The notes below the pieces were generated by a model. It saw only the letters and a list, made by a program, of their open reading frames with translations. It was not told the DNA's origin and ran no database searches. The position numbers and the translations under genes were made by a program. From Bdellovibrionota bacterium (lineage in GTDB: Bacteria; Bdellovibrionota_C; UBA2361; JAFLCA01), in contig JBIKUD010000004.1 of NCBI GenBank assembly GCA_044347745.1, positions 2,132 to 66,131 of the forward strand: a stretch of 64,000 nucleotides of DNA, read 5' to 3'. Below are positions 12,258 through 62,483 of this stretch, piece by piece. Numbering within the stretch: position 1 is the first letter of the stretch; the number at the start of each line of letters is the position of its first letter.

Positions 12258-12512
12258 ATGCAAGCAAAATCAACGCAAGTCGTCGGTGTTCCAACCTTTG
12301 TATCGGGTGACGGTCTTACCGTTTCAAATAAGGGACAAAGCCCTATCGGAATAGGCGCAGCCGCCGAGGTTCTACAGATGCCCAAATTGGACGAAGAGAG
12401 AGGAAGCGTCGCCCCAGACACTGGCGCTACAAATGTGCCCCCTCTTACCCAAACGGAGCCGATGACAGAGGCAGAATCCGCAAGACTTGATGAGCTTAGG
12501 CGTTCACTGTAA
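12258..12512 (+). CDS. Small hypothetical protein (84 aa), doubtful
   Basis: Only an ORF of normal composition in an otherwise unassigned 370-bp gap; competing antisense ORF is low complexity. Confidence 0.25.
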   Translation: MQAKSTQVVGVPTFVSGDGLTVSNKGQSPIGIGAAAEVLQMPKLDEERGSVAPDTGATNVPPLTQTEPMTEAESARLDELRRSL

Positions 12513-13070
12513 GAGCTTCGAAATACGGGCAATGGCGTCTGGGCTATCCCAGGCTCTGGGCCCCAATATTCGAACAACAGGCTGTCCGTCATCTGGGTCG
12601 CTTACCATCAATAGTTTGCCGTCTCGCCCTACGATAAAACTTTCGGGAACCCCAGATATTCTATACTTCCCTTTAATTCCACCCTGTTCGTCGACAACAA
12701 TGGGGAAGCTTAGTCCAAAACGGGATTTAAATTGCAAAAGACTTTCAGCGTGATCGTCTACTCCAACGCCGAGGACCACAAACCCCTTTGGCCCAAGCTG
12801 TTCATACAGCCTTTGTAAGGCGGGCAATTCTTCCACGCAGGGGGCACACCAGCTTGCCCAAAAATTAATAAGCACGACCTTGCCAGCGTGTTCACTCAGA
12901 CTTCCAAGTCCAGAACCATCGATGCGAGGAAATTCAATAGGAGGAGGCGAATCGCCGGGGTTAAGCCCCACGCCGACGCCCGTTTGACAGGACGAGAAAG
13001 CAAAAATAATGCAGATAACGAAAAGGGCGAACTGCAAACGCGTCCGCCCTTTCAACACAAGTTGTATCAC
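12504..13070 (-). CDS. TlpA/ResA-like periplasmic thiol:disulfide oxidoreductase (thioredoxin fold)
   Basis: WASWCAPC active site, N-terminal membrane anchor/lipobox (FAFSSCQ). Confidence 0.8.
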   Translation of the reverse strand: MIQLVLKGRTRLQFALFVICIIFAFSSCQTGVGVGLNPGDSPPPIEFPRIDGSGLGSLSEHAGKVVLINFWASWCAPCVEELPALQRLYEQLGPKGFVVLGVGVDDHAESLLQFKSRFGLSFPIVVDEQGGIKGKYRISGVPESFIVGRDGKLLMVSDPDDGQPVVRILGPRAWDSPDAIARISKLLQ

Positions 13071-13971: not shown

Positions 13972-15285
13972 ATGAAAACCAATGCGTTTAATCGCCGCAT
14001 CAAAGCTTGTCTCACAATTCTAAAAAGTAGCGTCAATCAAAGCGCACTGCTGCTCTCTTCGCATCCACCCGTCATACGTAGCCATGACACCCATTATCCA
14101 TATAAACAACAAAGCGACTTCTACTATCTGACTGGTTCAGAAATACAGAATTCGGCCCTGCTAATATCGAGTAAGTTAAAACACCCCATACTTTTTGCGC
14201 CTCCGCAAGATGCACACAAGACACTTTGGGAGGGGAAACAACCCAATCCAAAAATATTGGCACAGCAAATAGGAGCAGAGCTTAAAGTAGCGAAGGACAT
14301 GAGAGCGGAAGTGCTTGCGGCGCTTCGTGGGCACGATCAGTTATTGTTTCAGAACATACCGGGAAGTCTTAGTTTCAAAATTACAAGTGAACTTATTGCC
14401 ATACCTTCCTATGCCCGAGGCAATTTACCATCGCAGTTCAGTCACTCCGATGTACTTCTGGAACGCCTACGGCTCTTTAAAGATGCTGAGGAAGTGGAAA
14501 CTATTAGAGCCGCTAACGAGATTACTTCAGAGGCACTTTTGTTTGTAGCGGCAAAAATCCAACCGGGACAATTTGAATATGAAGTAGCGAGAACCCTTGA
14601 GTACATTTTTGGCATGAACAAATGCTCCCCTGCGTTCAATTCTATCATTGCCGCCGGTAAAAACGCAGCCACGCTACACTACGAGGCGCTTAATTCGAGG
14701 ATCGGCAAAAATGATATGGTACTGATTGATTCAGGAGCTCAACTAGATAATTACTGTGCCGACATTACAAGAATGCTCCCCGCCAGCGGGCAATTCAGCC
14801 CAATCCATAAATGCGTCTACGAGACAGTTCTGGCGGCACAATACGCAGCTCTGAAAAAAGTGAGGCACGGGGTGAAAATAGCTGAAGTGTACAACGCGGC
14901 AGCTGAGGTTTTAGTGGAAGGACTCTGCGAGCTAAAGGTGCTGCGTGGCACTCGCAAATCGATTATGAAAAATAAAGCCTTTAAACCCTATTTCCCACAT
15001 GGAATTGGGCATAGCCTAGGGCTTGATGTCCACGACCTCAGTCAATTACGTGGGAACAATGAGGCCGTGCTGGAAGCCGGCATGGTTTTCACTGTTGAAC
15101 CCGGCTTATATTTTGCGAAAGCCCAGGGGCAAGTTCCCGCTTGCGGCGTGCGCTTAGAGGACAATGTACTTGTAACAAACAAAGGCTGCGAAATCTTAAG
15201 TCCAGGGTTCCCTAAAGAGACGGATGAGATTGAGGCGCTAATGGAAGCACATGCGTTCGCCGGGAAAAACCGAGAAACGCTTTAA
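13972..15285 (+). CDS. Xaa-Pro aminopeptidase (M24B family)
   Basis: M24 metal-ligand motifs ([15 protein letters not shown]; [13 protein letters not shown]; EPGLY) with N-terminal creatinase-like domain; last ~14 codons and the stop lie inside repeat-element copy 1. Confidence 0.85.
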
Positions 15286-15739
15286 ATTGCCGGAAGTTGA
15301 GCTCGTAAGGAGCCCAAAATAATTGCAAGGGCAAATCGATTTCGAGCTCAATTCCTTTCAATTATTCAATCGTTTTAAATATGCCCACCCCAGCCGCGCC
15401 ATGCGCGGCTCCCCTGAAAGGGGTGTGCGTTCATACTTTGTTCCGAAGCTCGGGACCTTATTGCGAGGTGCCTCTACGGCAGGAAAGCATTCGGCCCACA
15501 GAAGGACTCACGAAAATAGCCAGTAAGCGAGGCCTAGCGAAACTTGAGCGAGGCAAGGATGCAGGGTCAAAAAGCGCGGAGCTGTATCTATTTGGGATAC
15601 AGCGAGCACATTTTGCCCCGAAGACGCAGCATCGCTCGAGTAGCAGCAGGCCGTAGCTCTGGATATTATTGTGAGCCCTTCTATACTTCGCGCCTCGTCT
15701 GAACGCATTTTGCCGACGAACAGAAACATAAAAGAGCTG
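15254..15739 (-). repeat. Copy 1 of a 4-copy structured repeat element (minus orientation), with ~190-nt internal expansion in hairpin 1
   Basis: Shares GCGTTCAGACGAGGCGCGA...GGAACAAAGTATGAACGC core (rc at 15427-15706) and terminal sequences nearly identical to copy 4 (15254-15300 rc vs 61846-61890; 15700-15730 rc vs 61647-61680). Confidence 0.8.
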
Positions 15740-15771
15740 CGTTTGCCTTAAGACTTTGCCAAAACTAAATT

Positions 15772-17499
15772 CTACACGGTGAGCACATGCGCAATAATCT
15801 TCTTTCTAAACTCCTCGAAGCCAACTCTCTTGAGCGCCGAAACTGCTACTGCATCATACTGTGCTGATAGATTTGCCACGATCGCTGGATCTTGAGCATC
15901 AATTTTATTAAGCACGTTCACTATGGGAGTATTTCCAAGCTCCATAGTTTGTAGCGTCGCTTCAACCGCAGCTTTCTTTTCAGCTACTTCGGGGTCAGAG
16001 GCATCCAGCACGTGCACTAAAACCGCAGCATCGTATAGTTCCTCAAGCGTGGCTCGAAATGCCGTGCGAAGTTCTTCAGGTAAATCGCGGATAAAACCTA
16101 CGGTATCGGAGAGAATAACGGGAGCTAATGTTACCTGCCCTTCTGGTCCGATTTGATTGAGGGTTATGCGCCGCTGTGCCGGATCAAGGGTGGCAAATAA
16201 TTTATTCTCAGCAAGTACCGTGCTTTGGGTTAAAGCATTAAAAAAGGTACTTTTACCTACGTTGGTGTACCCAAGAATTGCCACAAGCGGGACTCCCCGA
16301 TCCTGACGTTTACTTCTTCTGAGGTGGCGTTGCTCCCCAAGCTTATCTATTCGTCGTTCTAGGTCGACGATACGATCACGAATGCGTCTGCGGCCAATTT
16401 CTAATTTTGTTTCACCTGGTCCCCGACCACCAATTCCACCACTCAAGCGCGAAAGCCCAGTATCTTTTTCAACGAGACGAGGCAGATTGTACTTAAGCTG
16501 GGCAAGCTCAACCTGCAAGCGACCTTCGCTACTCGTCGCTCGTTGAGCGAAAATATCCAAAATGAGCATGCTCCGGTCAATAACTTTAAGATCAGTCATT
16601 TTGGTAATAATGCGCCATTGTCCTGGCTTTAGTTCTCCGTCAAATATGAGCATTTCAGCGCCAAGGGCGAGACAACGGAGTACCACTTGCTCCAATTTGC
16701 CCTTACCGAGGAGCGATCGAGGATCGGGGGTTCGTCGCTGCACAAAGGTATCGACGATGGCAACTCCCGCAGTGCGGGCCAGCTCACGCAGTTCAAGCAT
16801 CGAACTTTCAACCGCTTTCGCCGATTTTTCGTAGACACCAACGAGTACTGCTTTGACTCCCTGCACCTCTTTTGCGCTTGATTGCATCGCCTGAAGCTCG
16901 GCTTCAAGCTCTGCCAAAAACTCAGCGCAATTAAACTCAAAGCGACCTAAATCTGGAACTTTTTCGGTGCGTGAAAGGGGGTCGGCTTCAAGCCCAGGGG
17001 GAACTATGTAGGCATAAGCCATGCTCGTTTTTTTCTCGTCCCCTTTCAACGAAACTACCATATCAAGGCGCAGCTTATGCAAATCGGTGAAATGGTCTTG
17101 AGGGATTTGAGGTTCAGAAGTACTCGTTGACAAATCACTAAACAAGAGTCGCAGGCGTCGCAGGCGTCCGGGCCCTAATCGGTAACGTCCCAAATCAGGA
17201 AGATACAAAATTTCGCGTGAACCAATAAAAACCTCCTCTACTCGCCCCTCGCGAGAAACAAGCATACCGATGCGGCGTTTTATGGTGTGTGCGGCGCGCA
17301 AAATTTCACGTGCTACATCCAACGGCACAATCTCATCGCTTGAAAAACGACGGGAAAATAACTTTTGCACCATGCGAATTTCGCTTGGACTAAGTCCTTT
17401 GGTATTACCTTCAATATTCTGTGACATATTATTTTGAGCGTCCTTTTTTGAGGCTGGCCGAACGGGCATTCTAGTCGCGGCTTCAAATAAGCCAAGCAA
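15772..17499 (-). CDS. hflX: GTPase HflX with long N-terminal extension
   Basis: HflX N-domain and G-domain (GYTNVGKSTFFNALT, DTVGF); 575 aa vs ~430 typical. Confidence 0.85.
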   Translation of the reverse strand: MLGLFEAATRMPVRPASKKDAQNNMSQNIEGNTKGLSPSEIRMVQKLFSRRFSSDEIVPLDVAREILRAAHTIKRRIGMLVSREGRVEEVFIGSREILYLPDLGRYRLGPGRLRRLRLLFSDLSTSTSEPQIPQDHFTDLHKLRLDMVVSLKGDEKKTSMAYAYIVPPGLEADPLSRTEKVPDLGRFEFNCAEFLAELEAELQAMQSSAKEVQGVKAVLVGVYEKSAKAVESSMLELRELARTAGVAIVDTFVQRRTPDPRSLLGKGKLEQVVLRCLALGAEMLIFDGELKPGQWRIITKMTDLKVIDRSMLILDIFAQRATSSEGRLQVELAQLKYNLPRLVEKDTGLSRLSGGIGGRGPGETKLEIGRRRIRDRIVDLERRIDKLGEQRHLRRSKRQDRGVPLVAILGYTNVGKSTFFNALTQSTVLAENKLFATLDPAQRRITLNQIGPEGQVTLAPVILSDTVGFIRDLPEELRTAFRATLEELYDAAVLVHVLDASDPEVAEKKAAVEATLQTMELGNTPIVNVLNKIDAQDPAIVANLSAQYDAVAVSALKRVGFEEFRKKIIAHVLTV

Positions 17500-33053: not shown

Positions 33054-33328
33054 ATTTGAGAACTTGGGGGAACACAAGCTTCGCTTAATGTTCCCAGCAG
33101 GCGCAGTGTTTTAGGTGCCTTACCTTAGGAGCTAAGCCCCTCTCCTCCCTTCATAACTACTTGGAGTTCCTTAGCGCTGGCATGGTTAGGTAACAGAGCC
33201 TTAAGCTCAGCACAATTTGATTGGCATTTAATTTGCTCCTTCATACCAGCTGGTGGTTCCTCAATTAAAAAGGCGGCGATTCAACGCGCCACTAGAGGAA
33301 CGGTGCAGGTTTGTGGTTTGAGGTGGTT

Positions 33329-35542
33329 ATGTCGTGGCGTATTCTGTTGCGCAGTGCAATTTTTTTAATTGTATGTGTATTTTCGAGTAGTCCAGCGTGG
33401 GCCATATATACACGAATGCGTTTTACCGGCCCGTTTCACATTTCGAGCTGCCCCCCTTCGGGCCCCTCGCAGGTGGTCACAACGAACATACGGTATGACC
33501 TTGATTTTCGTCCTCTCCAAAACGTTGGTGCCATCGATCCGGTAGCAACTATCCTGCTCTACACCCAAAATCCACACCCGAGCTGCGCAGATGATCCGTT
33601 GGGAGCCAATTGTTTATCTTCATTCCCTCTGGGACAGCGCGCATTTTTGCCAAATCCACGTGAAATTCCAATCTCTATTACGAGCGCCATGGGGGGCCAA
33701 ACCTTCCACCTCCTTGCCGTGGGCTTTTCTATGGCATCGGGATCATTACAGGTTACGCACACCCGCGTTACTCCATTCCGATTTCTTGAATGTACGAGCA
33801 CACCAGCACCACTCGCTGTTCCCGGAGCAGGGTTTAGCTCAGGTCCGCCCGCTACCAGCGTGGTTGCTGGAACTCCCGCATTCTTACAAAACCAAACTAC
33901 CGTGGCTCACTGGGCTCTTGAAATTCAGCGTGACCGCCTGAGCGAAGCCCGCGAAATCGGCGTCATGACCGACAACGCCAGTGGCATTCAACGGGTAGAT
34001 TTTTCGGTCAATGGTGGTCCGATAGTTTCGGTAACGGAACGTCGATACGGCAAACGCGACGCGGCTCCGGGATATTTTATTACCGTCAATCCAGCTCAGT
34101 TTACTCCTGGCTCCCTTATTGAAATAAGAGCGGTAGTGTACCCCGTGTTCGGAAAAACTGCGGTACTGGCTGGACCAGTCACCACTCTTTCATCGGGATC
34201 AACCCCACCGACTTCAAATACGGGCTTACATAGTTTATTTTTGTACGCCGACCCAAATAATGCGCTGCCGAGGGCGACAGTTTATCTATCCCCAGGTGGC
34301 AATGACAACAGCGGCACAGGGTCGATTAGTGCTCCTTTTCTTACCTTTGCTCGGGCCGTAAATTCATTACGCACAACTCTTGGCAACAAACTAAGTGGTG
34401 GAACCATTGCTCTCTTGCCTGGTGACTATGTGCTTGGCTCTGGTCTGCCCAATTGGTGGACTCAAAGCGAATATCCAGACGGTTATCTAACTGTTGAATC
34501 GGCACCTGGTGTTCCTTCCGATCAAGTTCGCTTTGTAAATGTGCAGTCCAGCTGGATGGCGCGCTTTCTGAAAGTGCGTAACCTTACTATCTTGCCCCCT
34601 TTTAACGTTTCTATTTTGCGCGACGGCGATGGTGAACGAAGGGCACACCTCTACGTAGAAAATGTGGATGTGTATAGCCCGAGCCTTACCAGTGGGCACT
34701 TTAATTACGGCGGCAACGAGTTCGGGTTCAAAGCCGTGAAGCGTTCCTATACCGTGGGTGGTGACCGGGGCGTTGATTCCGCGTCATGGATTGCAAATTT
34801 TATGACCTATTACGGCACAGGGATCGCCTTTAACGACTCAATTCTTGTCTTTTCCTCGCTCGCCGAAAATTATGACCAGTATCGTCGTCATCCAGCGAAT
34901 CATGGAGACCTATTCCACATTCATGGAAGGGAGAAAAATATTCTTATCCAATGGCTTCTTCGCGGCGTGGATTTGTTCCGAATCCAAGGTCTATTCTTGT
35001 CAGCGGCCAAAGACGGGGTAGCAATTATCGAAAGCGTCAGCGATGTTGCTACTCGCGAAAAAGAAGTTGGCGCTCCAGGCAATGCTGCCCCTATCGGAGG
35101 ACAGCAGAACTTGATTATACGCAGCTCTGAATTTTTTGGTCAGGCAAACGTATTTAGTAATCCTGCAAACCAGCCGGGCAGCGTCTTTTTAGCAGACGGT
35201 GTGACATTCCCCATGAATCCTTGCAACACTTTTAATGAAGATTGCAATCCTTCTACGGGAACTTCAAACAACTCAAGCGGAGTGGTCTACTTAGGAAATG
35301 CCGCAGCATTAACAATGGTAAAATCGTCAGAGCCCGCTAAAACAATTGGGAAAGTCAACAAGGCAAAAATAGGCAAGCCCGCCCAAATTTCGCAAAAATC
35401 TCTTCGAATATTACTAAAATCTTTTCCTAAAGAGATTGCGCGCTTAATTCAAAAACAGACTGCGCTTTCAAAGCCAGCAGTCAAACGCAAGTTAGCTTTA
35501 CGTAGGTTGAACAATAAGGCAAAAAGCGTGGTTATTAGTTAG
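33329..35542 (+). CDS. Secreted protein, probably right-handed beta-helix (pectin-lyase fold)-like, with Lys-rich C-terminal tail
   Basis: Signal MSWRILLRSAIFLIVCVFSSSPAWA after GAGGTGG RBS; Gly/Asn/Ser/Thr-rich periodic body; ~70-aa K/R-rich C-terminus. Confidence 0.5.
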   Translation: MSWRILLRSAIFLIVCVFSSSPAWAIYTRMRFTGPFHISSCPPSGPSQVVTTNIRYDLDFRPLQNVGAIDPVATILLYTQNPHPSCADDPLGANCLSSFPLGQRAFLPNPREIPISITSAMGGQTFHLLAVGFSMASGSLQVTHTRVTPFRFLECTSTPAPLAVPGAGFSSGPPATSVVAGTPAFLQNQTTVAHWALEIQRDRLSEAREIGVMTDNASGIQRVDFSVNGGPIVSVTERRYGKRDAAPGYFITVNPAQFTPGSLIEIRAVVYPVFGKTAVLAGPVTTLSSGSTPPTSNTGLHSLFLYADPNNALPRATVYLSPGGNDNSGTGSISAPFLTFARAVNSLRTTLGNKLSGGTIALLPGDYVLGSGLPNWWTQSEYPDGYLTVESAPGVPSDQVRFVNVQSSWMARFLKVRNLTILPPFNVSILRDGDGERRAHLYVENVDVYSPSLTSGHFNYGGNEFGFKAVKRSYTVGGDRGVDSASWIANFMTYYGTGIAFNDSILVFSSLAENYDQYRRHPANHGDLFHIHGREKNILIQWLLRGVDLFRIQGLFLSAAKDGVAIIESVSDVATREKEVGAPGNAAPIGGQQNLIIRSSEFFGQANVFSNPANQPGSVFLADGVTFPMNPCNTFNEDCNPSTGTSNNSSGVVYLGNAAALTMVKSSEPAKTIGKVNKAKIGKPAQISQKSLRILLKSFPKEIARLIQKQTALSKPAVKRKLALRRLNNKAKSVVIS

Positions 35543-35597
35543 TTCGCCTCAACGCTTTACCAAAACTGACTTATTCACGGTGAACTAGTTAGCGAAA

Positions 35598-36683
35598 CTA
35601 AATCCGGGCTAACTCTTTTCCGAGTTTGTTTCTACGACCCCGGAATCGCAAAGAAACTTCCGCACCCGTTTCCATGGACTCATACATGGCGTTAATGAGG
35701 GTGAGCGATTTTAAGCCCTCCATGCCGTCCACAGCCCCGCCTTTGCCCTTTCGAATAGAATCAACAACTCCCTGCAAATAGCGTTGATGACCAAAGCCAT
35801 AAACATTCGGCGGGTTCTCTTTGTATTTTTGAAGCACCTCTGCGTCTTCCGGTAGCGGCTTTGCAAAGTTCCAGGTCCTCATTTCGTTTACCGCAAACCC
35901 AGCAATTTCTACACTGCCTCCCTCTCCCAAAATGGAAATAGAACCTTCAAGATCTTTAGGGCGAGTGGCTGTAGTGGCTTCAACCACACCCAGCGCTCCG
36001 TTTGTAAACTTCAGAACTGCTACCGCCGTATCATCGGCCTCAATCTGGACTAACCGTGTAGTTGTATAACTGAATACCGATTCTACATCGCCCATTAAAT
36101 AGGTGAGCAGGTCTATGTGATGACTTGCTTGATTTGAAATCACTCCCCCATCAAGCGACCAGGTACCACGCCAGGAATCCATGTCATAGTAACTTTGCTC
36201 GCGGCACCATCTGACACGAACCGTGCCCATTACCAATTTACCGAAGCGCCCCGCATCCATTGCGGCTTTTAATTGCTGCACGGGTAAGTTGTAGCGATTT
36301 TGTTTAACTACGAAAAGGCGCACTCCAGCCTGATCACAGGCTCGAATCATAGATTCTGCATCCTGGATGGTAAGCGCCATGGGTTTTTCAACGATGATAT
36401 GTTTGCCATAAGGAGCCAGCTCCAAAGTCTCCCGCGCATGCAAGCCGCTTGGCGTCAAAATACTAAAAGCAGAAACTTCAGGATGTTTCGCGGCCATTTC
36501 ATGATAGTTTGTGTACCAGGGAACGCCATATTTTTCCCCAGTGTTGCGTGCACGCTCCACTTGGATGTCACACACGGCAGCAAGCTCAGCGCCTTTAATA
36601 TGCTGAATAGCATCCAGATGTTTACCCGAAATTCTACCGCAACCAACAAGAGCAAATAAAACAGGAGATTCGTTAGCCGTCAT
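35598..36683 (-). CDS. Gfo/Idh/MocA family NAD-dependent sugar dehydrogenase (WbpB-like)
   Basis: N-terminal Rossmann LVGCGRISGKHLDAI and Gfo/Idh/MocA C-terminal domain; polysaccharide locus context. Confidence 0.8.
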   Translation of the reverse strand: MTANESPVLFALVGCGRISGKHLDAIQHIKGAELAAVCDIQVERARNTGEKYGVPWYTNYHEMAAKHPEVSAFSILTPSGLHARETLELAPYGKHIIVEKPMALTIQDAESMIRACDQAGVRLFVVKQNRYNLPVQQLKAAMDAGRFGKLVMGTVRVRWCREQSYYDMDSWRGTWSLDGGVISNQASHHIDLLTYLMGDVESVFSYTTTRLVQIEADDTAVAVLKFTNGALGVVEATTATRPKDLEGSISILGEGGSVEIAGFAVNEMRTWNFAKPLPEDAEVLQKYKENPPNVYGFGHQRYLQGVVDSIRKGKGGAVDGMEGLKSLTLINAMYESMETGAEVSLRFRGRRNKLGKELARI

Positions 36684-44163: not shown

Positions 44164-44493
44164 GAGCGTTTTTCGGATTTTCACGGAGAACGGGCGCTGT
44201 TTGAATGGGGCGTTTTTGCCCGAGGGATGAATCGAGTTTTCAACTCTTAGTTTCTCGTTCTCCCTCAAAATGCGTTCAGACGAGGCGCGAGGCTTGTGTG
44301 GCAACCGAGTGGTACAGAATGTACCTCGCAGGGAGCCTCCAAGCCTCGGAACAAAGTATGAACGCAACGAAAAGCGCATCCAGAATTGCAAGGGATTGAG
44401 CTCTTGGTGCCCCCTTCCCTGCAATGATCTAGGGCAAATCACGAGCTCAACTCCCCGCAATTCAGAGCGTTTTTCGGATTTTCACGGAGAACG
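44164..44493 (+). repeat. Copy 2 of the structured repeat element (plus orientation), flanked by perfect 29-bp direct repeats
   Basis: DRs GAGCGTTTTTCGGATTTTCACGGAGAACG at 44164-44192 and 44465-44493; hairpin 1 at 44272-44365, hairpin 2 at 44396-44450. Confidence 0.85.
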
Positions 44494-45281
44494 AACCATT
44501 TAAAGGGGATACACGGCTTCCTATACAAATGCGGGGGTATCTTATCTGCAATTTCAGCGTGAAACTCGGGAAGTTTTGACCAATGCAGTCCGGGTTTTAC
44601 ATGATGAGCTGTATGATACCCCAAGTTGCCGGTGCAGAGATTATAGGTTGGATGCATTATATTATAAGAGGCTTCATACTCATTAGGGGTATCTAATCCG
44701 GCGTGATGATAGTAAGTGTGCCAACAAGTGGCGATGTATCCCCAAGTCATAGGAAGCCAAAACACAAACAGCGCAGGCAAAGGTCTTTGCACGGTCAAGA
44801 GAAGCAGCACACAAGCCACAAGGAATGTCGCGCTTAGAAATCCGCGTTGGTACTTTGGATGCTGTCTTCCTACTTGAAAAGCTCGCCAATACCCCGTTGC
44901 CGCGATGGTAAGTGTATACTCAACGGCACCCATAGTGGTGCCGTCTTTACGCTGCCATCCTGACTCGTCTTTCTTTTGATCGGTGTAATTAATGTGATGA
45001 CCCAGCACGTGGTGCAATACCCAGGCGTTTGTCGTAATGCCTGTGTGCAAGGCATACACTATTTCGAGCATCCGATTCAGAATCAAAGATTTAAAGGTCG
45101 GAAGATGCTGGTGATGGTGATTCCAGGAGCAAATACAGGCCTTTGGGAAGAGCATTAATACGAACCAGAAGCTTAAGTACCAAGGTGAATCAACGAGGGC
45201 GTACACCAGCAAATCAAAGGCAAATAACCCCACTATAATAATAGTGGGACAACGGTCAGCCTGATAACGAAAAATGCCCAT
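44439..45281 (-). CDS. Membrane fatty-acid-desaturase-family (di-iron His-box) protein
   Basis: His boxes HHQHL, HHVLGHH, HTAHHVKP; start set to internal Met to avoid 90-bp overlap; last ~20 codons and stop come from repeat copy 2. Confidence 0.6.
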   Translation of the reverse strand: MGIFRYQADRCPTIIIVGLFAFDLLVYALVDSPWYLSFWFVLMLFPKACICSWNHHHQHLPTFKSLILNRMLEIVYALHTGITTNAWVLHHVLGHHINYTDQKKDESGWQRKDGTTMGAVEYTLTIAATGYWRAFQVGRQHPKYQRGFLSATFLVACVLLLLTVQRPLPALFVFWLPMTWGYIATCWHTYYHHAGLDTPNEYEASYNIMHPTYNLCTGNLGYHTAHHVKPGLHWSKLPEFHAEIADKIPPHLYRKPCIPFKWFVLRENPKNALNCGELSS

Positions 45282-52688: not shown

Positions 52689-52689
52689 G

Positions 52690-53029
52690 CGCGCTGTGAA
52701 AAACGTAAAAATGCTTTAAATTGCAGAAATTCCGGCTCGAGAAAAACAGGACTCTCTTGACGGATAATTTGTAGCTCGAGCCCAATTCCTTGCAATTTTG
52801 GCCGCATTTTTACTCGCGTTCATACTTTGTTCCGAGGCTCGAAGTCTCCCTGCGAGGTGCATTGAGCACCACTCAGTCGCCATCAAGCCTCGCGCCTCGT
52901 CTGAACGCATTTTGACAGCGCGCTCAGAAAACAACTAACTCGCCTTGCACGATTTTCAAGAAGCCCATCTGTTTTTGTAAATCTTAAATACGCGCTGTGA
53001 AAAACGTAAAAATGCTTTAAATTGCAGAA
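52690..53029 (-). repeat. Copy 3 of the structured repeat element (minus orientation), flanked by perfect 39-bp direct repeats
   Basis: DRs CGCGCTGTGAAAAACGTAAAAATGCTTTAAATTGCAGAA at 52690-52728 and 52991-53029; hairpin 1 rc at 52816-52908. Confidence 0.85.
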
Positions 53030-53043
53030 GTTCTTCTGCTCGC

Positions 53044-54081
53044 CTACTTTGCTTTGTCGTCCTGATCATACTCGTCGACTATTTCGTGCCCAACGACCTC
53101 TTCGAGAATATCTTCCAGAGTAACAATTCCCGCTAACCCGCCGTGCTCATCAACAACCGAGCAAATATGCTCATTATATTCAAACATCTTAAGCAAGATA
53201 TTATCCAGACGCGCAAGCTCTGGAACCGCGGTAAGCGGTCGCGCCAGATCCTTTAAGGTTGCATTTTTATTGCCGGAGACTATTTCTCTGTATAAATCAC
53301 GCTGGCGCACATAACCTGTAAGATGCTCTGGCTCGGCCTCGTTATAAATTGGCACTCGGGTGTATTCCCACTCAAGAATTGAGGATGAGATATCCCCCAG
53401 CGTTTTATCCTCAGGAACTCGAAATACGACCACGCGCGGAGTAAGCACATCCCGCACTATTTTCTTATCAAGGCCAATGACATTATGAATTACCGAACCT
53501 TCTAGCTTATCAAGCGACCCTTCTCGGGTGCCCAGTTGAGCCAACGCCAATACCTCTTCATGTGAAACTTGGGGAGCACTTGCGCCAAAATGTAAGCGTT
53601 TTGAAATCTGAACAGAGACCCAAATTAAGGGAGAAAATAGTTTAACCAAAAAACTTAAGGGGATTGCAGCAAAAATCGCTACCTGTTTGGCATATCGCAC
53701 CCCAATAACCTTAGGGGATACTTCAGCAATGTAGAGCACCAAAATTGAAAAAGTGGCGGAAAATAAAATGAGCCCGAGCTCCCCCCACATATCACCGGCT
53801 ACCGCTCCTGCTACTGTAGCGCCTATCGTGTTCGCTCCAGAAGAAAGAATTAAGATAGCGGTAATCGGTCGTTCAACGTCACGCTTAAGCTGCTGAAGCA
53901 CCCTGCCAGCGCGACCACCTGTATAGGCGAGCTGCTGCACGTAGGTCATGGGCACGGCAAAAAGTGCGGCCTCAACCACAGAGCAAACAAATGCTACTAG
54001 CAAAGAAAGTGAGACGGACAGAATAAGCAACGTGAGCATGTCGGAATAAGATAAGCTAAAAAGCCACGCCTTGTCACGCAC
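53044..54081 (-). CDS. CNNM/CorB-type transporter-associated protein (DUF21 transmembrane domain + CBS pair)
   Basis: 4 TM DUF21 N-terminus then two CBS motifs; lacks CorC_HlyC C-terminal domain. Confidence 0.8.
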   Translation of the reverse strand: MRDKAWLFSLSYSDMLTLLILSVSLSLLVAFVCSVVEAALFAVPMTYVQQLAYTGGRAGRVLQQLKRDVERPITAILILSSGANTIGATVAGAVAGDMWGELGLILFSATFSILVLYIAEVSPKVIGVRYAKQVAIFAAIPLSFLVKLFSPLIWVSVQISKRLHFGASAPQVSHEEVLALAQLGTREGSLDKLEGSVIHNVIGLDKKIVRDVLTPRVVVFRVPEDKTLGDISSSILEWEYTRVPIYNEAEPEHLTGYVRQRDLYREIVSGNKNATLKDLARPLTAVPELARLDNILLKMFEYNEHICSVVDEHGGLAGIVTLEDILEEVVGHEIVDEYDQDDKAK

Positions 54082-61585: not shown

Positions 61586-61611
61586 GGGCCCTCTCCGGGG
61601 CCCTTTCTATT
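61586..61611. terminator. Rho-independent terminator (bidirectional type)
   Basis: AAAAAA-GGGCCC-tctccg-GGGCCC-TTTCTATT: perfect 6-bp GC stem flanked by A-tract and U-tract. Confidence 0.55.
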
Positions 61612-61632
61612 AAAGTAAAGCCTTGAGGCGAA

Positions 61633-61896
61633 CTTAGCTTTTTCACGTTTCTGTTCGTCGGCAAAATGCGTTCAGACGAGGCGCGAGGTTCGTGGGCCGA
61701 ATGAGTGGTACTATACGTACCTCGCAATGAGGCCCCGAGCCTCGGAACAAAGTATGAACGCAACGAAAAACGCTCCTAGAATTGCTAGGAATTGAGCTCA
61801 AAATCGTTCTTTTTCCTGCAATAATGCGAGGCTTTTAGCGAGCTCAACTTCCTGCAATTTAGAGCGTTTTTCGGTTTTTCCCGGCGAACCTACTCT
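61633..61896 (+). repeat. Copy 4 of the structured repeat element (plus orientation), terminal repeats degenerate
   Basis: Hairpin 1 at 61668-61761, hairpin 2 TTGAGCTC...GAGCTCAA at 61791-61845, right-end block CAATTTAGAGCGTTTTTCGGTTTTTCCCGGCGAACC. Confidence 0.8.
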
Positions 61897-62130: not shown

Positions 62131-62483
62131 TGGGCCATTCCTCCAATTTAAAGGATGGTTAAATAAAAACTACTTGTACACAATGCGAGGGATTACAGCG
62201 CTGAGACGTGATGAGAGGGGCTACAACATAAAGATTTTTGTGAAGAAGCGGGCTTACTGTCCGCATGCAGGAATCACCTCAAAAGTTCAGCCACATCACG
62301 AAGTACACTGCTCTCTTATTGTAAAAGTTGCGACGAAGAGCTGTCAAAAACTATTCAAAATGAGCTTGAAAGAATTTTCCGCTAGGCGCCAACTATCTGT
62401 AACTGTGCACTAAAATTATCGAATGCTCATTCTAGTATTCCGGTCTTTTATAACCAGGCGGAAGAAGATGGCTCCACTGCCCA

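What the first reader, a model, noticed from the sequence alone, without database searches (positions are those of the whole stretch)
44272..44450. Compensatory base changes in two hairpins of the repeat element argue for a structured RNA (or structured DNA) unit
Hairpin 1 is closed by GCGTTCA...TGAACGC in all copies. Its inner helix reads CGAGGCTTG/CAAGCCTCG in copy 2 but CGAGGTTCG/CGAGCCTCG in copy 4, which keeps the pairing with one G-U pair. The apical stem-loop is GGTAC-agaat-GTACC in copy 2, GGTAC-tatac-GTACC in copy 4 and GGTGC-tcaat-GCACC in copy 3, so an A to G change is matched by a T to C change and the loop varies. Hairpin 2 arms are TTGAGCTC...GAGCTCAA in copies 1, 2 and 4 but GCTCGAG...CTCGAGC in copy 3. 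Stems are conserved as pairs while loops drift, which is the signature of selection on secondary structure. Copy 1 keeps the closing stems but carries a ~190-nt insertion in the apical region at 15427-15706.
Basis: seen in the sequence. Interest (0 to 1): 0.8.

Follow-up and report, generated by a model that had tools for sequence, protein, structure and literature searches.

The report
Structured mobile repeat at gene ends
The flagged hairpins belong to a roughly 300-base non-coding repeat that has spread through one uncultured freshwater bacterium, landing mostly where two genes end facing each other. Its three-armed fold has been kept by matching mutations, so it is a new structured mobile repeat and not an ordinary gene or a chance hairpin.

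Summary
The hairpins at 44272-44450 are the core of a ~300-nt non-coding repeat. I found 7 copies and 1 remnant in ~130 kb of one uncultured freshwater Bdellovibrionota-like genome.

**Structure.**
- On 7 copies, 94.7% of pair cells are standard pairs.
- 20 of 76 pairs carry compensatory double changes, against 7.7±2.0 in shuffles and 1-4 in slid controls.
- G·U outnumbers A·C 35:6, so the constraint acts on one strand, most likely as RNA.
- Two copies found later fit a structure derived without them.

**Mobility.**
- The element is absent from orthologous sites in relatives.
- It has 9-10-bp target duplications at two sites.
- It fills 5 of 9 convergent gene junctions in the window and 0 of 49 others.

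**Not found.** No Rfam match, no conserved ORF, no terminal inverted repeats, and no transposase, reverse transcriptase or Cas gene nearby.

**Verdict.** It is a new lineage-restricted family of MITE/SPRITE-like structured repeats with unusual features. How it moves and what the RNA does are inferred, not shown.

The parts
44164..44495 (+). Copy c2, the copy in the finding: extra tail copy, leader, three-way-junction core and 3' tail
   Evidence: model R1, 274.6 bits at 44247-44498
44164..44192 (+). c2: second copy of the 3' tail (GAGCGTTTTTCGGATTTTCACGGAGAAC), lying 301 nt upstream of the tail proper
   Evidence: family D4, spacing 301
44256..44270 (+). c2: P1 5' arm (CGTTCTCCCT.AAAA)
44271..44366 (+). 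c2: hairpin 1. It has the invariant closing stem GCGTTCA/TGAACGC, the invariant internal loop GAGGCG / GAACAAA, a covarying inner helix and an apical stem-loop.
44368..44476 (+). c2: hairpin 2, a long imperfect hairpin whose base is an A-tract paired to a T-tract (CGAAAAGCGC / GAGCGTTTTTCG)
   Evidence: -50.6 kcal/mol
44479..44493 (+). c2: P1 3' arm (TTTT.ACGGAGAACG) at the 3' end of the element
61593..61888 (+). Copy c4. The left boundary is inferred by alignment to c1 and c5; homology is unambiguous from about 61611.
   Evidence: (276.9 bits at 61643-61895)
52689..53043 (-). Copy c3 including its extra upstream tail copy. It fills the whole space between the stop codons of the CNNM gene and a 70-aa gene.
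52980..53033 (-). c3: second copy of the 3' tail, 301 nt upstream of the tail proper (48 of 54 identical)
   Evidence: family D2
15256..15781 (-). Copy c1, the most decayed copy (14 of 78 pairs broken), with two nested insertions
15782..15791 (-). c1: left copy of the 10-bp target-site duplication CGCATGTGCT
   Evidence: sequence
15246..15255 (-). c1: right copy of the 10-bp target-site duplication CGCATGTGCT
   Evidence: sequence
15504..15685 (-). 182-nt insertion nested in the inner helix of c1 hairpin 1. It folds on itself, with ends AGAAGGGCTCAC / GTGAGTCCTTCT.
15382..15425 (-). 44-nt GC-rich hairpin nested between hairpin 1 and hairpin 2 of c1
35543..35583 (-). Solo remnant: the 5' leader (TCACCGTG...GAGGCGAA) joined directly to the 3' end. 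It is flanked by CTAACTAGT (35584-35592) and CTAACTAAT (35534-35542), which match at 8 of 9 positions.

Best explanation
**What is shown.** The hairpins are the core of a ~300-nt non-coding, non-autonomous mobile repeat. It is confined, as far as could be searched, to one uncultured freshwater Bdellovibrionota/Oligoflexia-like species.
- It inserted at sites that are empty in relatives.
- It left 9-10-bp target duplications at two sites.
- It sits almost only where genes end, usually with its 3' end within about 10 nt of, or overlapping, the stop codon of a gene on the opposite strand.
- Its sense strand folds into a three-way junction: a variable but always complementary P1, hairpin 1 with invariant internal loops, and a long hairpin 2 bracketed by A- and T-tracts.
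- The fold is maintained by compensatory changes and by G·U rather than A·C pairs.

**What is inferred.**
- The constrained molecule is the RNA made when the co-oriented neighbouring gene is read through into the element. No promoter of its own was seen.
- Hairpin 2, with its A/U tracts, acts as a 3'-end module: a two-way terminator or a block to exonucleases. This would make insertions between converging genes tolerated or useful.
- The invariant loops of hairpin 1 are the binding site of a factor encoded elsewhere, either the mobilising enzyme or an RNA-binding protein.
- Copies that lose the fold, such as c1, are decaying.
For: **Repeat family.**
- The window holds 4 copies. Further copies are c5, c6 and c7.
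- Model R1 finds no other copy in about 130 kb of the same species.

**Mobility.**
- In three relatives with DNA, and in the 79%-identical sister's gene table, CNNM and the small gene converge at -4 to +5 nt. The window has 355 nt there.
- The c4 site is 80-134 nt in relatives and 351 nt here.
- An exact 10-bp direct repeat flanks c1. An 8-of-9 repeat flanks the solo remnant at the same element boundaries.
- Several independent assemblies break inside the repeat.

**Structure.**
- RNAalifold gives 80 pairs, 22 of them with double changes.
- The pair-count controls agree.
- The out-of-sample copies c6 and c7 fit the structure.
- G·U to A·C is 35:6, and the sense-strand consensus energy is better.

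**Non-coding.** The ORF from the conserved ATG runs 12-77 codons with different stops.

**Position.**
- My census of 58 gene junctions in the window gives 9 convergent, 9 divergent and 40 tandem (gene lists).
- The element or its remnant occupies 5 of the 9 convergent junctions and 0 of the 49 others (hypergeometric p about 3e-5).
- c5 is also at a convergent junction.

**Terminator shape.** An A-tract, a long hairpin and a T-tract are conserved in c2-c6. The scanner reports terminator-like sites on the reverse strand.

**Precedent.** Pneumococcal SPRITE, BOX and RUP repeats are likewise enriched between convergent genes, and SPRITE resembles a terminator (PMC3049150; review PMC3184786).
Against: - There are no terminal inverted repeats at the termini defined by the target duplications, only 5 of 7 nt (CACCGTG versus CGCCGGG). 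That is atypical for a transposase-mobilised MITE.
- No transposase, reverse transcriptase, integrase or Cas gene lies in the window or its flanks.
- Target duplications are clear at only 2 of 8 sites, possible at 2 more (c6, c7) and absent at c4 and c5.
- c6 lies co-oriented between gspC and gspD. A strong terminator there should be harmful.
- In c7 the U-tract of hairpin 2 is interrupted, and the change is compensated in the A-tract. What is preserved there is the pairing, not a U-run.
- c4 sits next to what looks like a native terminator (61586-61603), so it is not needed for termination at that site.
- The second tail copy 301 nt upstream in c2 and c3 is not explained by simple cut-and-paste.
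- There are no expression data, and only 7 copies could be collected.
Confidence: 0.5

Rival explanations
1. The element is an RNA-mediated, SINE-like mobile element. Its structured transcript is the transposition intermediate, recognised through hairpin 1 and P1 by a reverse transcriptase encoded elsewhere and copied into nicked targets. On this reading the fold is conserved because it is needed for copying, not for any host function.
For: - The constraint is strand-specific, with G·U far more common than A·C.
- There are invariant internal loops and no terminal inverted repeats.
- Target duplications are 9-10 bp with no shared target sequence.
- The 5' ends vary. c2 and c3 extend 29 and about 54 nt further, into a second copy of the tail, with the same 301-nt period. 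That is what over-length copying of a multimeric or circular template would give.
- P1 differs between subfamilies but always pairs.
Against: - No reverse transcriptase gene lies in about 130 kb.
- No target-primed retroelement of this type is known in bacteria (own knowledge).
- There is no 3' A-rich or other priming tail.
- Three insertions share the same 5' end (CACCGTG), as expected for a fixed DNA terminus.
- Tandem partial duplication at the DNA level could also produce the extra tails.
Confidence: 0.15
2. The element is a DNA-level palindromic repeat with no RNA role. Its arms are kept complementary by templated repair within hairpins or cruciforms (quasi-palindrome correction), or by the needs of a single-stranded DNA intermediate. 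Any transcript would be incidental.
For: - Both strands fold far better than shuffles, with z = -7.7 and -7.9.
- Many bacterial repeats owe their predicted RNA fold simply to inverted repeats (PMC3184786).
- G·T wobble is also tolerated in single-stranded DNA, so the strand asymmetry does not exclude one specific DNA strand.
Against: - Templated correction should give perfect Watson-Crick arms and equal G·T and A·C intermediates. What is observed is 35 G·U against 6 A·C.
- The sense strand folds better in 4 of 5 copies.
- It would not explain the invariant unpaired loops (GAGGCG / GAACAAA, ACCTCGCA) in copies that differ by 18-35% elsewhere.
- Target duplications argue against IS200/IS605-type single-strand transposition, which makes none (own knowledge).
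Confidence: 0.15
3. The copies form a multicopy family of independently transcribed small RNAs. These could be regulators, or guide- or retron-like RNAs whose partner protein is encoded elsewhere. The copies would then be gene duplicates and not transposon insertions.
For: - The three-way junction has conserved loops.
- P1 resembles the a1/a2 repeats that flank retron msr-msd, and hairpin 2 resembles a long msd stem (own knowledge).
- The 36-nt tail pairs with an upstream anti-repeat-like arm.
Against: - No sigma-70-like promoter was found upstream of c2 or c4, and the leader is poorly conserved.
- No reverse transcriptase, Cas, TnpB or IscB gene is adjacent.
- There is no complementarity between element and flanks beyond chance.
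- There is no Rfam hit.
- The target duplications and the solo remnant show insertion and deletion dynamics typical of a mobile repeat.
Confidence: 0.1

Closest known systems
[quoted passage not shown]
   Same: - It is a small non-coding interspersed repeat restricted to one species group.
- It has a long stem followed by a U-rich tract.
- Its only end-complementarity of note is AAAA/TTTT.
- It is strongly enriched between convergently transcribed genes and close to 3' ends of coding sequences.
- It has a stable predicted RNA fold.
   Different: - SPRITE is about 105 nt and a single hairpin. This element is about 300 nt and a three-way junction, with a second domain (hairpin 1) that carries invariant loops.
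- There is no sequence relationship and the phylum is different.
- Target duplications are visible here at two sites; for SPRITE they could not be established.
Bacterial MITEs, such as Correia/NEMIS elements, ERIC, and bcr1 of the Bacillus cereus group (review PMC3184786)
   Same: - It is non-autonomous, under about 400 bp and present in many dispersed intergenic copies.
- It has target-site duplications.
- It folds into stable structures at the RNA level.
- It is co-transcribed with neighbouring genes.
- Other small repeats insert into it, and deletion derivatives occur.
   Different: - MITEs are defined by terminal inverted repeats that match an IS. This element has none at the termini defined by its target duplications. 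Its complementary arms (P1) lie about 70 nt in from the 5' end and differ between subfamilies.
- The conserved parts are internal loops, not the ends.
REP/BIME elements (PMC3184786; bioRxiv 10.64898/2026.03.23.713779)
   Same: - It is an extragenic palindromic repeat at 3' ends and between convergent genes.
- REP/BIME elements are proposed to act as both terminators and mRNA stabilisers.
   Different: - REPs are 20-40-nt GC-rich hairpins mobilised by RAYT transposases without target duplication.
- This element is ten times larger, is not GC-rich and makes target duplications.
Retron msr-msd non-coding RNA
   Same: - The overall layout is similar: flanking complementary arms, a structured 5' domain, then a long imperfect hairpin.
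   Different: - Retrons are single-copy and sit directly upstream of their reverse transcriptase gene.
- Here there are many copies and no reverse transcriptase gene in about 130 kb. The resemblance is one of shape only.

Membership tests
MITE | Short, non-coding, multiple dispersed copies | tested here: met
   There are 7 copies of 246-526 nt and 1 remnant in about 130 kb. No ORF is conserved.
MITE | Target-site duplication flanking each copy | tested here: inconclusive
   An exact 10-bp repeat flanks c1 and an 8-of-9 repeat flanks the solo remnant. c6 and c7 show only weak candidates, c4 and c5 show none, and c2 and c3 instead carry a repeated tail.
MITE | Terminal inverted repeats at the element ends | tested here: not met
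   The termini defined by the target duplications are 5'-CACCGTG and GGCGAA-3'. Only 5 of 7 nt are complementary (sequences).
MITE | A parent IS with matching ends in the same genome | not testable with these tools
   Only about 130 kb of the genome could be reached, and it holds no transposase.
SPRITE-like terminator repeat | Long stem followed by a U-rich tract | tested here: met
   Hairpin 2 folds at -38 to -51 kcal/mol in c2-c6 and is followed by TTTTTCGGTTTTTC. The tract is interrupted in c7.
SPRITE-like terminator repeat | Enrichment between convergent genes, close to 3' ends of coding sequences | tested here: met
   The element occupies 5 of 9 convergent junctions and 0 of 49 others in the window. 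Its 3' end lies -57 to +10 nt from an opposite-strand stop codon in 7 of 8 cases.
SPRITE-like terminator repeat | Actual termination or RNA-stabilising activity | not testable with these tools
   This needs Term-seq or reporter assays.
Any Rfam family (ribozymes, HEARO/omega RNA, group II intron, CRISPR repeats, sRNAs) | Covariance-model match at or near the gathering score | tested here: not met
   The whole window gives only a tRNA. With E up to 10 on c2, only sub-threshold microRNA-shaped hairpin hits appear.
Retron | Reverse transcriptase gene directly downstream of the msd region | tested here: not met
   The downstream neighbours are host genes on the opposite strand.
IS200/IS605 derivatives (PATE, orphan omega RNA) | No target duplication; TnpA or TnpB nearby; guide adjacent to the end | tested here: not met
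   Target duplications are present. There is no TnpA or TnpB and no complementarity to the flanks.
CRISPR array | Three or more regularly spaced short repeats with unique spacers; cas genes | tested here: not met
   At most two tail copies occur per locus, 301 nt apart, and the 'spacer' between them is the conserved element itself. There are no cas genes.
Integron attC cassette site | 57-141 nt; RYYYAAC...GTTRRRY cores; integrase nearby | tested here: not met
   The size is about 300 nt, the ends read GTTCG...CGAAC (the opposite order), and there is no integrase.

The most novel reading that the evidence does not exclude
The element may be an RNA that drives its own spread or has catalytic or guide-like activity. 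One form would be a bacterial SINE-like retroelement copied from a structured, possibly multimeric or circular, transcript. In that case hairpin 1 would be the enzyme recognition or active core, and P1 with the repeated terminal tail would take part in priming or template switching. The evidence does not exclude this: the constraint is strand-specific, the loops are invariant, there are no inverted terminal repeats, the target duplications are 9-10 bp, and two over-length copies share the same 301-nt period.
Probability: 0.12. Interest if true: 0.85.

Novelty: new variant of a known kind. Interest (0 to 1): 0.55.

Why it matters
If the reading is right, this is a previously undescribed ~300-nt structured RNA or repeat family from a poorly sampled predatory-bacteria lineage. 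Its covariation is strong enough to define a three-way-junction fold from seven copies.

- **For non-coding RNA discovery.** It offers a candidate with invariant loops of unknown function.
- **For mobile-element biology.** It spreads without terminal inverted repeats and occupies more than half of the convergent gene junctions examined. Several of these had no intergenic space before insertion. That makes it a natural test case for whether repeats are recruited as two-way terminators or 3'-end stabilisers, or whether they actively target gene ends.
- **For metagenome assembly.** The element breaks metagenome assemblies of this organism.

Tried and rejected
1. **Exact 20-mer scans for more copies.** The scans of genome contigs and metagenome contigs gave only chance hits in high-GC coding DNA. 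An 18-mer scan of viral contigs found nothing.
2. **Fishing copies through spurious ORFs.**
   - The 77-aa ORF from the conserved ATG found only itself.
   - A profile of the peptides encoded by the reverse strand of the tail found nothing at E up to 10.
   - The reverse-strand 102-aa ORF searched against all representatives did work and gave c6.
   - Walking from cluster look-ups then gave c7.
3. **Rfam.** Nothing was found at gathering score on the window or at E up to 10 on c2.
4. **BLAST against plasmids and phages.** The element and the 182-nt nested insertion gave no match.
5. **Relatives.** Model R1 found nothing in L013, L024, L025 or L026, about 68 kb in all.
6. **Guide-target idea.** No complementarity or identity between any copy and its 400-nt flanks exceeds shuffled expectation. 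I also considered and dropped the idea that the P1 3' arm comes from the target, because c1, c4 and c5 share the same arm at different sites.
7. **Own promoter.** No sigma-70-like site was found on the element strand upstream of c2 or c4.
8. **Strain polymorphism or empty sites within the species.** All assemblies carry identical copies.
9. **The sister species.** DNA of the 79%-identical sister could not be fetched, so exact boundaries at c3 and c4 remain unresolved.
10. **Other classes considered and rejected.** The reasons for CRISPR array, attC site, retron, IS200/IS605 derivative and group II intron are in the membership table.

Full report
**1. The observation**

The region 44272-44450 was read together with the three other places in the window that share it and aligned.
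- the invariant closing stem GCGTTCA/TGAACGC;
- the inner helix with a U-G pair in copy 4;
- the A-U to G-C swap in the apical stem of copy 3, with unrelated loops;
- the replacement of TTGAGCTC/GAGCTCAA by GGGCTCGAG/CTCGAGCC in copy 3.

Three corrections are needed.
- The insertion in copy 1 is 182 nt at 15504-15685. It lies inside the inner helix, not at the apex. A second insertion of 44 nt lies at 15382-15425.
- Hairpin 2 extends to 44368-44476, because an A-rich arm pairs with the T-rich tail.
- A third helix, P1 (44256-44270 with 44479-44493), closes the two hairpins into a three-way junction.

P1 differs between copies but always pairs:

| Copy | 5' arm | 3' arm |
|---|---|---|
| c2 | CGTTCTCC | GGAGAACG |
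| c1, c4, c5 | GTTCGTCGG | CCGGCGAAC |
| c3 | GCGCGCTGT | ACAGCGCGC |
| c6 | GTTCGCCGT | ACGGCGAGC |
| c7 | TCTGTTCTCCGT | ACGGAGAACAGA |

**2. Is it more than chance?**

- A 20-mer from the 5' invariant block occurs four times exactly, against 0.01 expected.
- Copy 2 folds at -116.6 kcal/mol, z = -7.7.
- RNAalifold on five copies predicts 80 pairs, 22 of them with changes on both sides.
- On that structure 93.5% of cells are standard pairs. Shuffling partners gives 7.4±2.2 double-change pairs, and 0 of 500 shuffles reach 22. Sliding partners by 1-3 columns gives 1-3.
- Copies c6 and c7 were found only after the structure was fixed, so they serve as tests of it.
  - c6 has 75 of 79 standard pairs.
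  - c7 has a perfect 12-bp P1 of a new sequence, and even a compensated A-U to G-C change inside the A-tract/T-tract helix.
- With seven copies, 94.7% of cells are paired and 20 of 76 pairs have double changes, against 7.7±2.0 in shuffles and 1-4 in slid controls.
- Pairwise identity is only 65-82%.
- Copy c1 also carries the two nested insertions and has 14 broken pairs, about what neutral decay would give. The others have 2-5.

The sample is small and c1, c4 and c5 are close relatives, so these numbers are strong indications and not formal probabilities.

**3. Which strand, and RNA or DNA?**

- On the strand as defined, G·U pairs fill 35 cells in 20 columns and A·C pairs fill 6 cells in 6 columns (binomial p about 0.009).
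- When the reverse complement is folded on its own, the imbalance disappears (10 against 8 columns). The consensus energy is also worse, -79.0 against -88.3 kcal/mol, and 4 of 5 copies fold better in the sense direction.
- A symmetric DNA palindrome, or arms kept alike by templated repair, should not show this.
- The constraint is therefore on one strand. That is most simply its RNA, but one particular single DNA strand cannot be excluded.
- There is no conserved ORF. The conserved ATG opens frames of 12-77 codons with different stops, and the reverse frames are equally broken.

**4. What it is: a mobile repeat**

*Host.* Proteins identical to those of the window occur on contigs from several freshwater metagenomes and one NCBI MAG. 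CNNM homologues are labelled Bdellovibrionota, Oligoflexia or Bdellovibrionales. The nearest are only 79% and about 60% identical.

*Copies.* Extending the contig and walking to a second contig gave c5, c6 and c7. That makes 7 copies and one remnant in about 130 kb. Model R1 finds no other copy there and none in about 68 kb from three relatives. Rfam, plasmid and phage searches and collection scans found nothing.

*Insertion.*
- In three relatives, and in the gene table of the 79% sister, the CNNM gene and a 70-75-aa gene converge with -4 to +5 nt between them. In the window the gap is 355 nt, filled end to end by c3.
- The c4 site measures 80-134 nt in relatives and 351 nt here.
- c1 is flanked by an exact 10-bp direct repeat, CGCATGTGCT.
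- At 35543-35583 a 41-nt remnant consists of the element's 5' leader joined to its last bases. This is as expected from deletion between the two GGCGAAC repeats of the leader and tail. It is flanked by CTAACTAGT and CTAACTAAT at exactly the same element boundaries.
- The termini are thus 5'-CACCGTG...GGCGAA-3'. Without its nested insertions c1 measures 300 nt.
- Several assemblies end inside the repeat.

**5. Where it sits**

- From the gene lists I counted 58 junctions in the window: 9 convergent, 9 divergent and 40 tandem.
- The element or its remnant occupies 5 of the 9 convergent junctions and none of the other 49 (hypergeometric p about 3e-5).
- c5 is also at a convergent junction. c7 lies just after the stop codon of an opposite-strand gene in a tandem gap. 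c6 is the exception, co-oriented between gspC and gspD.
- The 3' end of the element lies -57 to +10 nt from the stop codon of the gene facing it in 7 of 8 cases.
- Where the two genes had no spacer, the target duplication preserved both stops, or the genes now end inside the element:
  - the last 19 codons of the desaturase lie in c2;
  - the last 10 codons of the M24 peptidase and the last 3 of HflX lie in c1;
  - the CNNM C-terminus departs from its sister's after ...YDQD.

**6. How it most likely works**

*Shown:* it is a mobile, non-coding, strand-specifically structured repeat at gene ends.

*Inferred:*
- It is transcribed by read-through from the co-oriented gene. No promoter was found in c2 or c4, and the leader is poorly conserved.
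- Hairpin 2 has an A-tract, a stem of 35 bp or more, and TTTTTCGGTTTTTC. That is the form of a two-way intrinsic terminator or a 3'-end protector, which would explain why insertions persist between converging genes.
- Hairpin 1 has loops GAGGCG / GAACAAA and a segment ACCTCGCA that never vary, while the neighbouring stems do. It is probably the binding site of a factor encoded elsewhere.
- CGAGG in the loop could pair with CCTCG in the apical region as a pseudoknot. Both are invariant, so this cannot be tested by covariation.

*Against the terminator idea:*
- c6 lies inside an operon.
- The compensated break in the U-tract of c7 suggests the pairing is what is preserved.
- c4 sits next to an apparent native terminator.

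I put 0.5 on this overall picture.

**7. What remains unexplained**

- There are no terminal inverted repeats, and no mobilising enzyme was seen (and the gene tables).
- c2 and c3 carry a second copy of the 3' tail, 29 and about 54 nt long. Within each locus the two copies are 28 of 28 and 48 of 54 identical. In both loci the extra copy lies exactly 301 nt upstream of the real tail, and at c3 it is part of the inserted block.
- This could reflect local tandem duplication. It could also reflect copying of more than one unit length from a multimeric or circular template.
- That second possibility, together with the strand-specific constraint, keeps an RNA-mediated (SINE-like) mechanism open at about 0.12-0.15.
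- A guide-target relation was tested and not found.

**8. Comparison with known systems**

- The closest kinds are the pneumococcal SPRITE, BOX and RUP repeats and bacterial MITEs and REPs.
  - SPRITE is a terminator-like hairpin with only AAAA/TTTT at its ends, and it is the repeat most enriched between convergent genes (PMC3049150).
  - MITEs and REPs fold at the RNA level and sit at 3' ends (PMC3184786; bioRxiv 10.64898/2026.03.23.713779).
- The present element works like these but is not a member of any of them. It fails the MITE criterion of terminal inverted repeats, is three times the size of SPRITE, and has a second conserved domain.
- The retron resemblance is one of shape only.

**9. 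Verdict**

It is a new, lineage-restricted family of structured mobile repeats with unusual features. It is interesting to specialists in non-coding RNA and mobile elements, but its function and mechanism are not established. Interest 0.55.

Noticed in passing
window 35534-35592 (- strand): A 41-nt solo remnant of the element, made of the 5' leader fused to the last bases. It is flanked by an 8-of-9 direct repeat and lies in the 55-nt gap between convergent genes 33311-35542 and 35598-36683. The right repeat contains the stop codon of the first gene.
   Followed up: yes
window 15504-15685 and 15382-15425 (- strand): Two foreign hairpins are nested in copy c1. One is a 182-nt self-folding segment with near-perfect inverted ends, AGAAGGGCTCAC / GTGAGTCCTTCT. 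The other is a 44-nt GC-rich hairpin (AGCCGCGC-ATG-GCGCGGCT inside CACCCC...GGGGTG). Both are unique in all the sequence fetched and have no plasmid match, so they may belong to other small repeat families.
   Followed up: partly
window 44164-44192 and 52980-53033: In c2 and c3 a second copy of the element's 3' tail lies exactly 301 nt upstream of the real tail. Together with local sequence, each extra copy forms a small hairpin followed by a T-run, right after the stop of the upstream gene (hisF-like, CNNM). The origin is unexplained.
   Followed up: partly
window 44439-44495, 15255-15285, 15772-15781, 53044-53060: Host genes now end inside the element. The fatty-acid desaturase takes its last 19 codons from c2. 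The M24 peptidase takes its last 10 codons, and HflX its last 3 plus the stop, from c1. The CNNM C-terminus (..YDQDDKAK) departs from that of its 79% sister (..YDQDERDRAESHDN) near the c3 boundary.
   Followed up: partly
window 62131-62483 (- strand); L013:2014-2467; L024:2276-2564: The 350-nt gap upstream of a 76-aa gene holds a sigma-70-like promoter (TTGACA, 18 nt, TACAAT) and about 190 nt of leader. The promoter block and the ribosome-binding site are conserved in two distant relatives. This may be a cis-regulatory leader, and one assembly breaks here.
   Followed up: partly
window about 28000-52400: Compared with relative L013, about 24 kb of polysaccharide-synthesis genes lies between the Wzy_C gene and the 70-aa/CNNM pair. 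Other relatives (L024, L026) hold different gene sets at the same place, so this is a variable surface-polysaccharide island. Copy c2 lies inside it.
   Followed up: no
window 12259-12513 (+ strand): An 84-codon ORF fills what would otherwise look like a 367-nt convergent gap before the AhpC-like gene. It fell below the 90-aa listing threshold.
   Followed up: no
L007, L010, L011, L012, L021, L022, L031 (contig ends): Independent metagenome assemblies of this species stop inside the repeat, just after its invariant 5' block in L007 and L010-L012. The element therefore limits assembly contiguity for this organism.
   Followed up: yes
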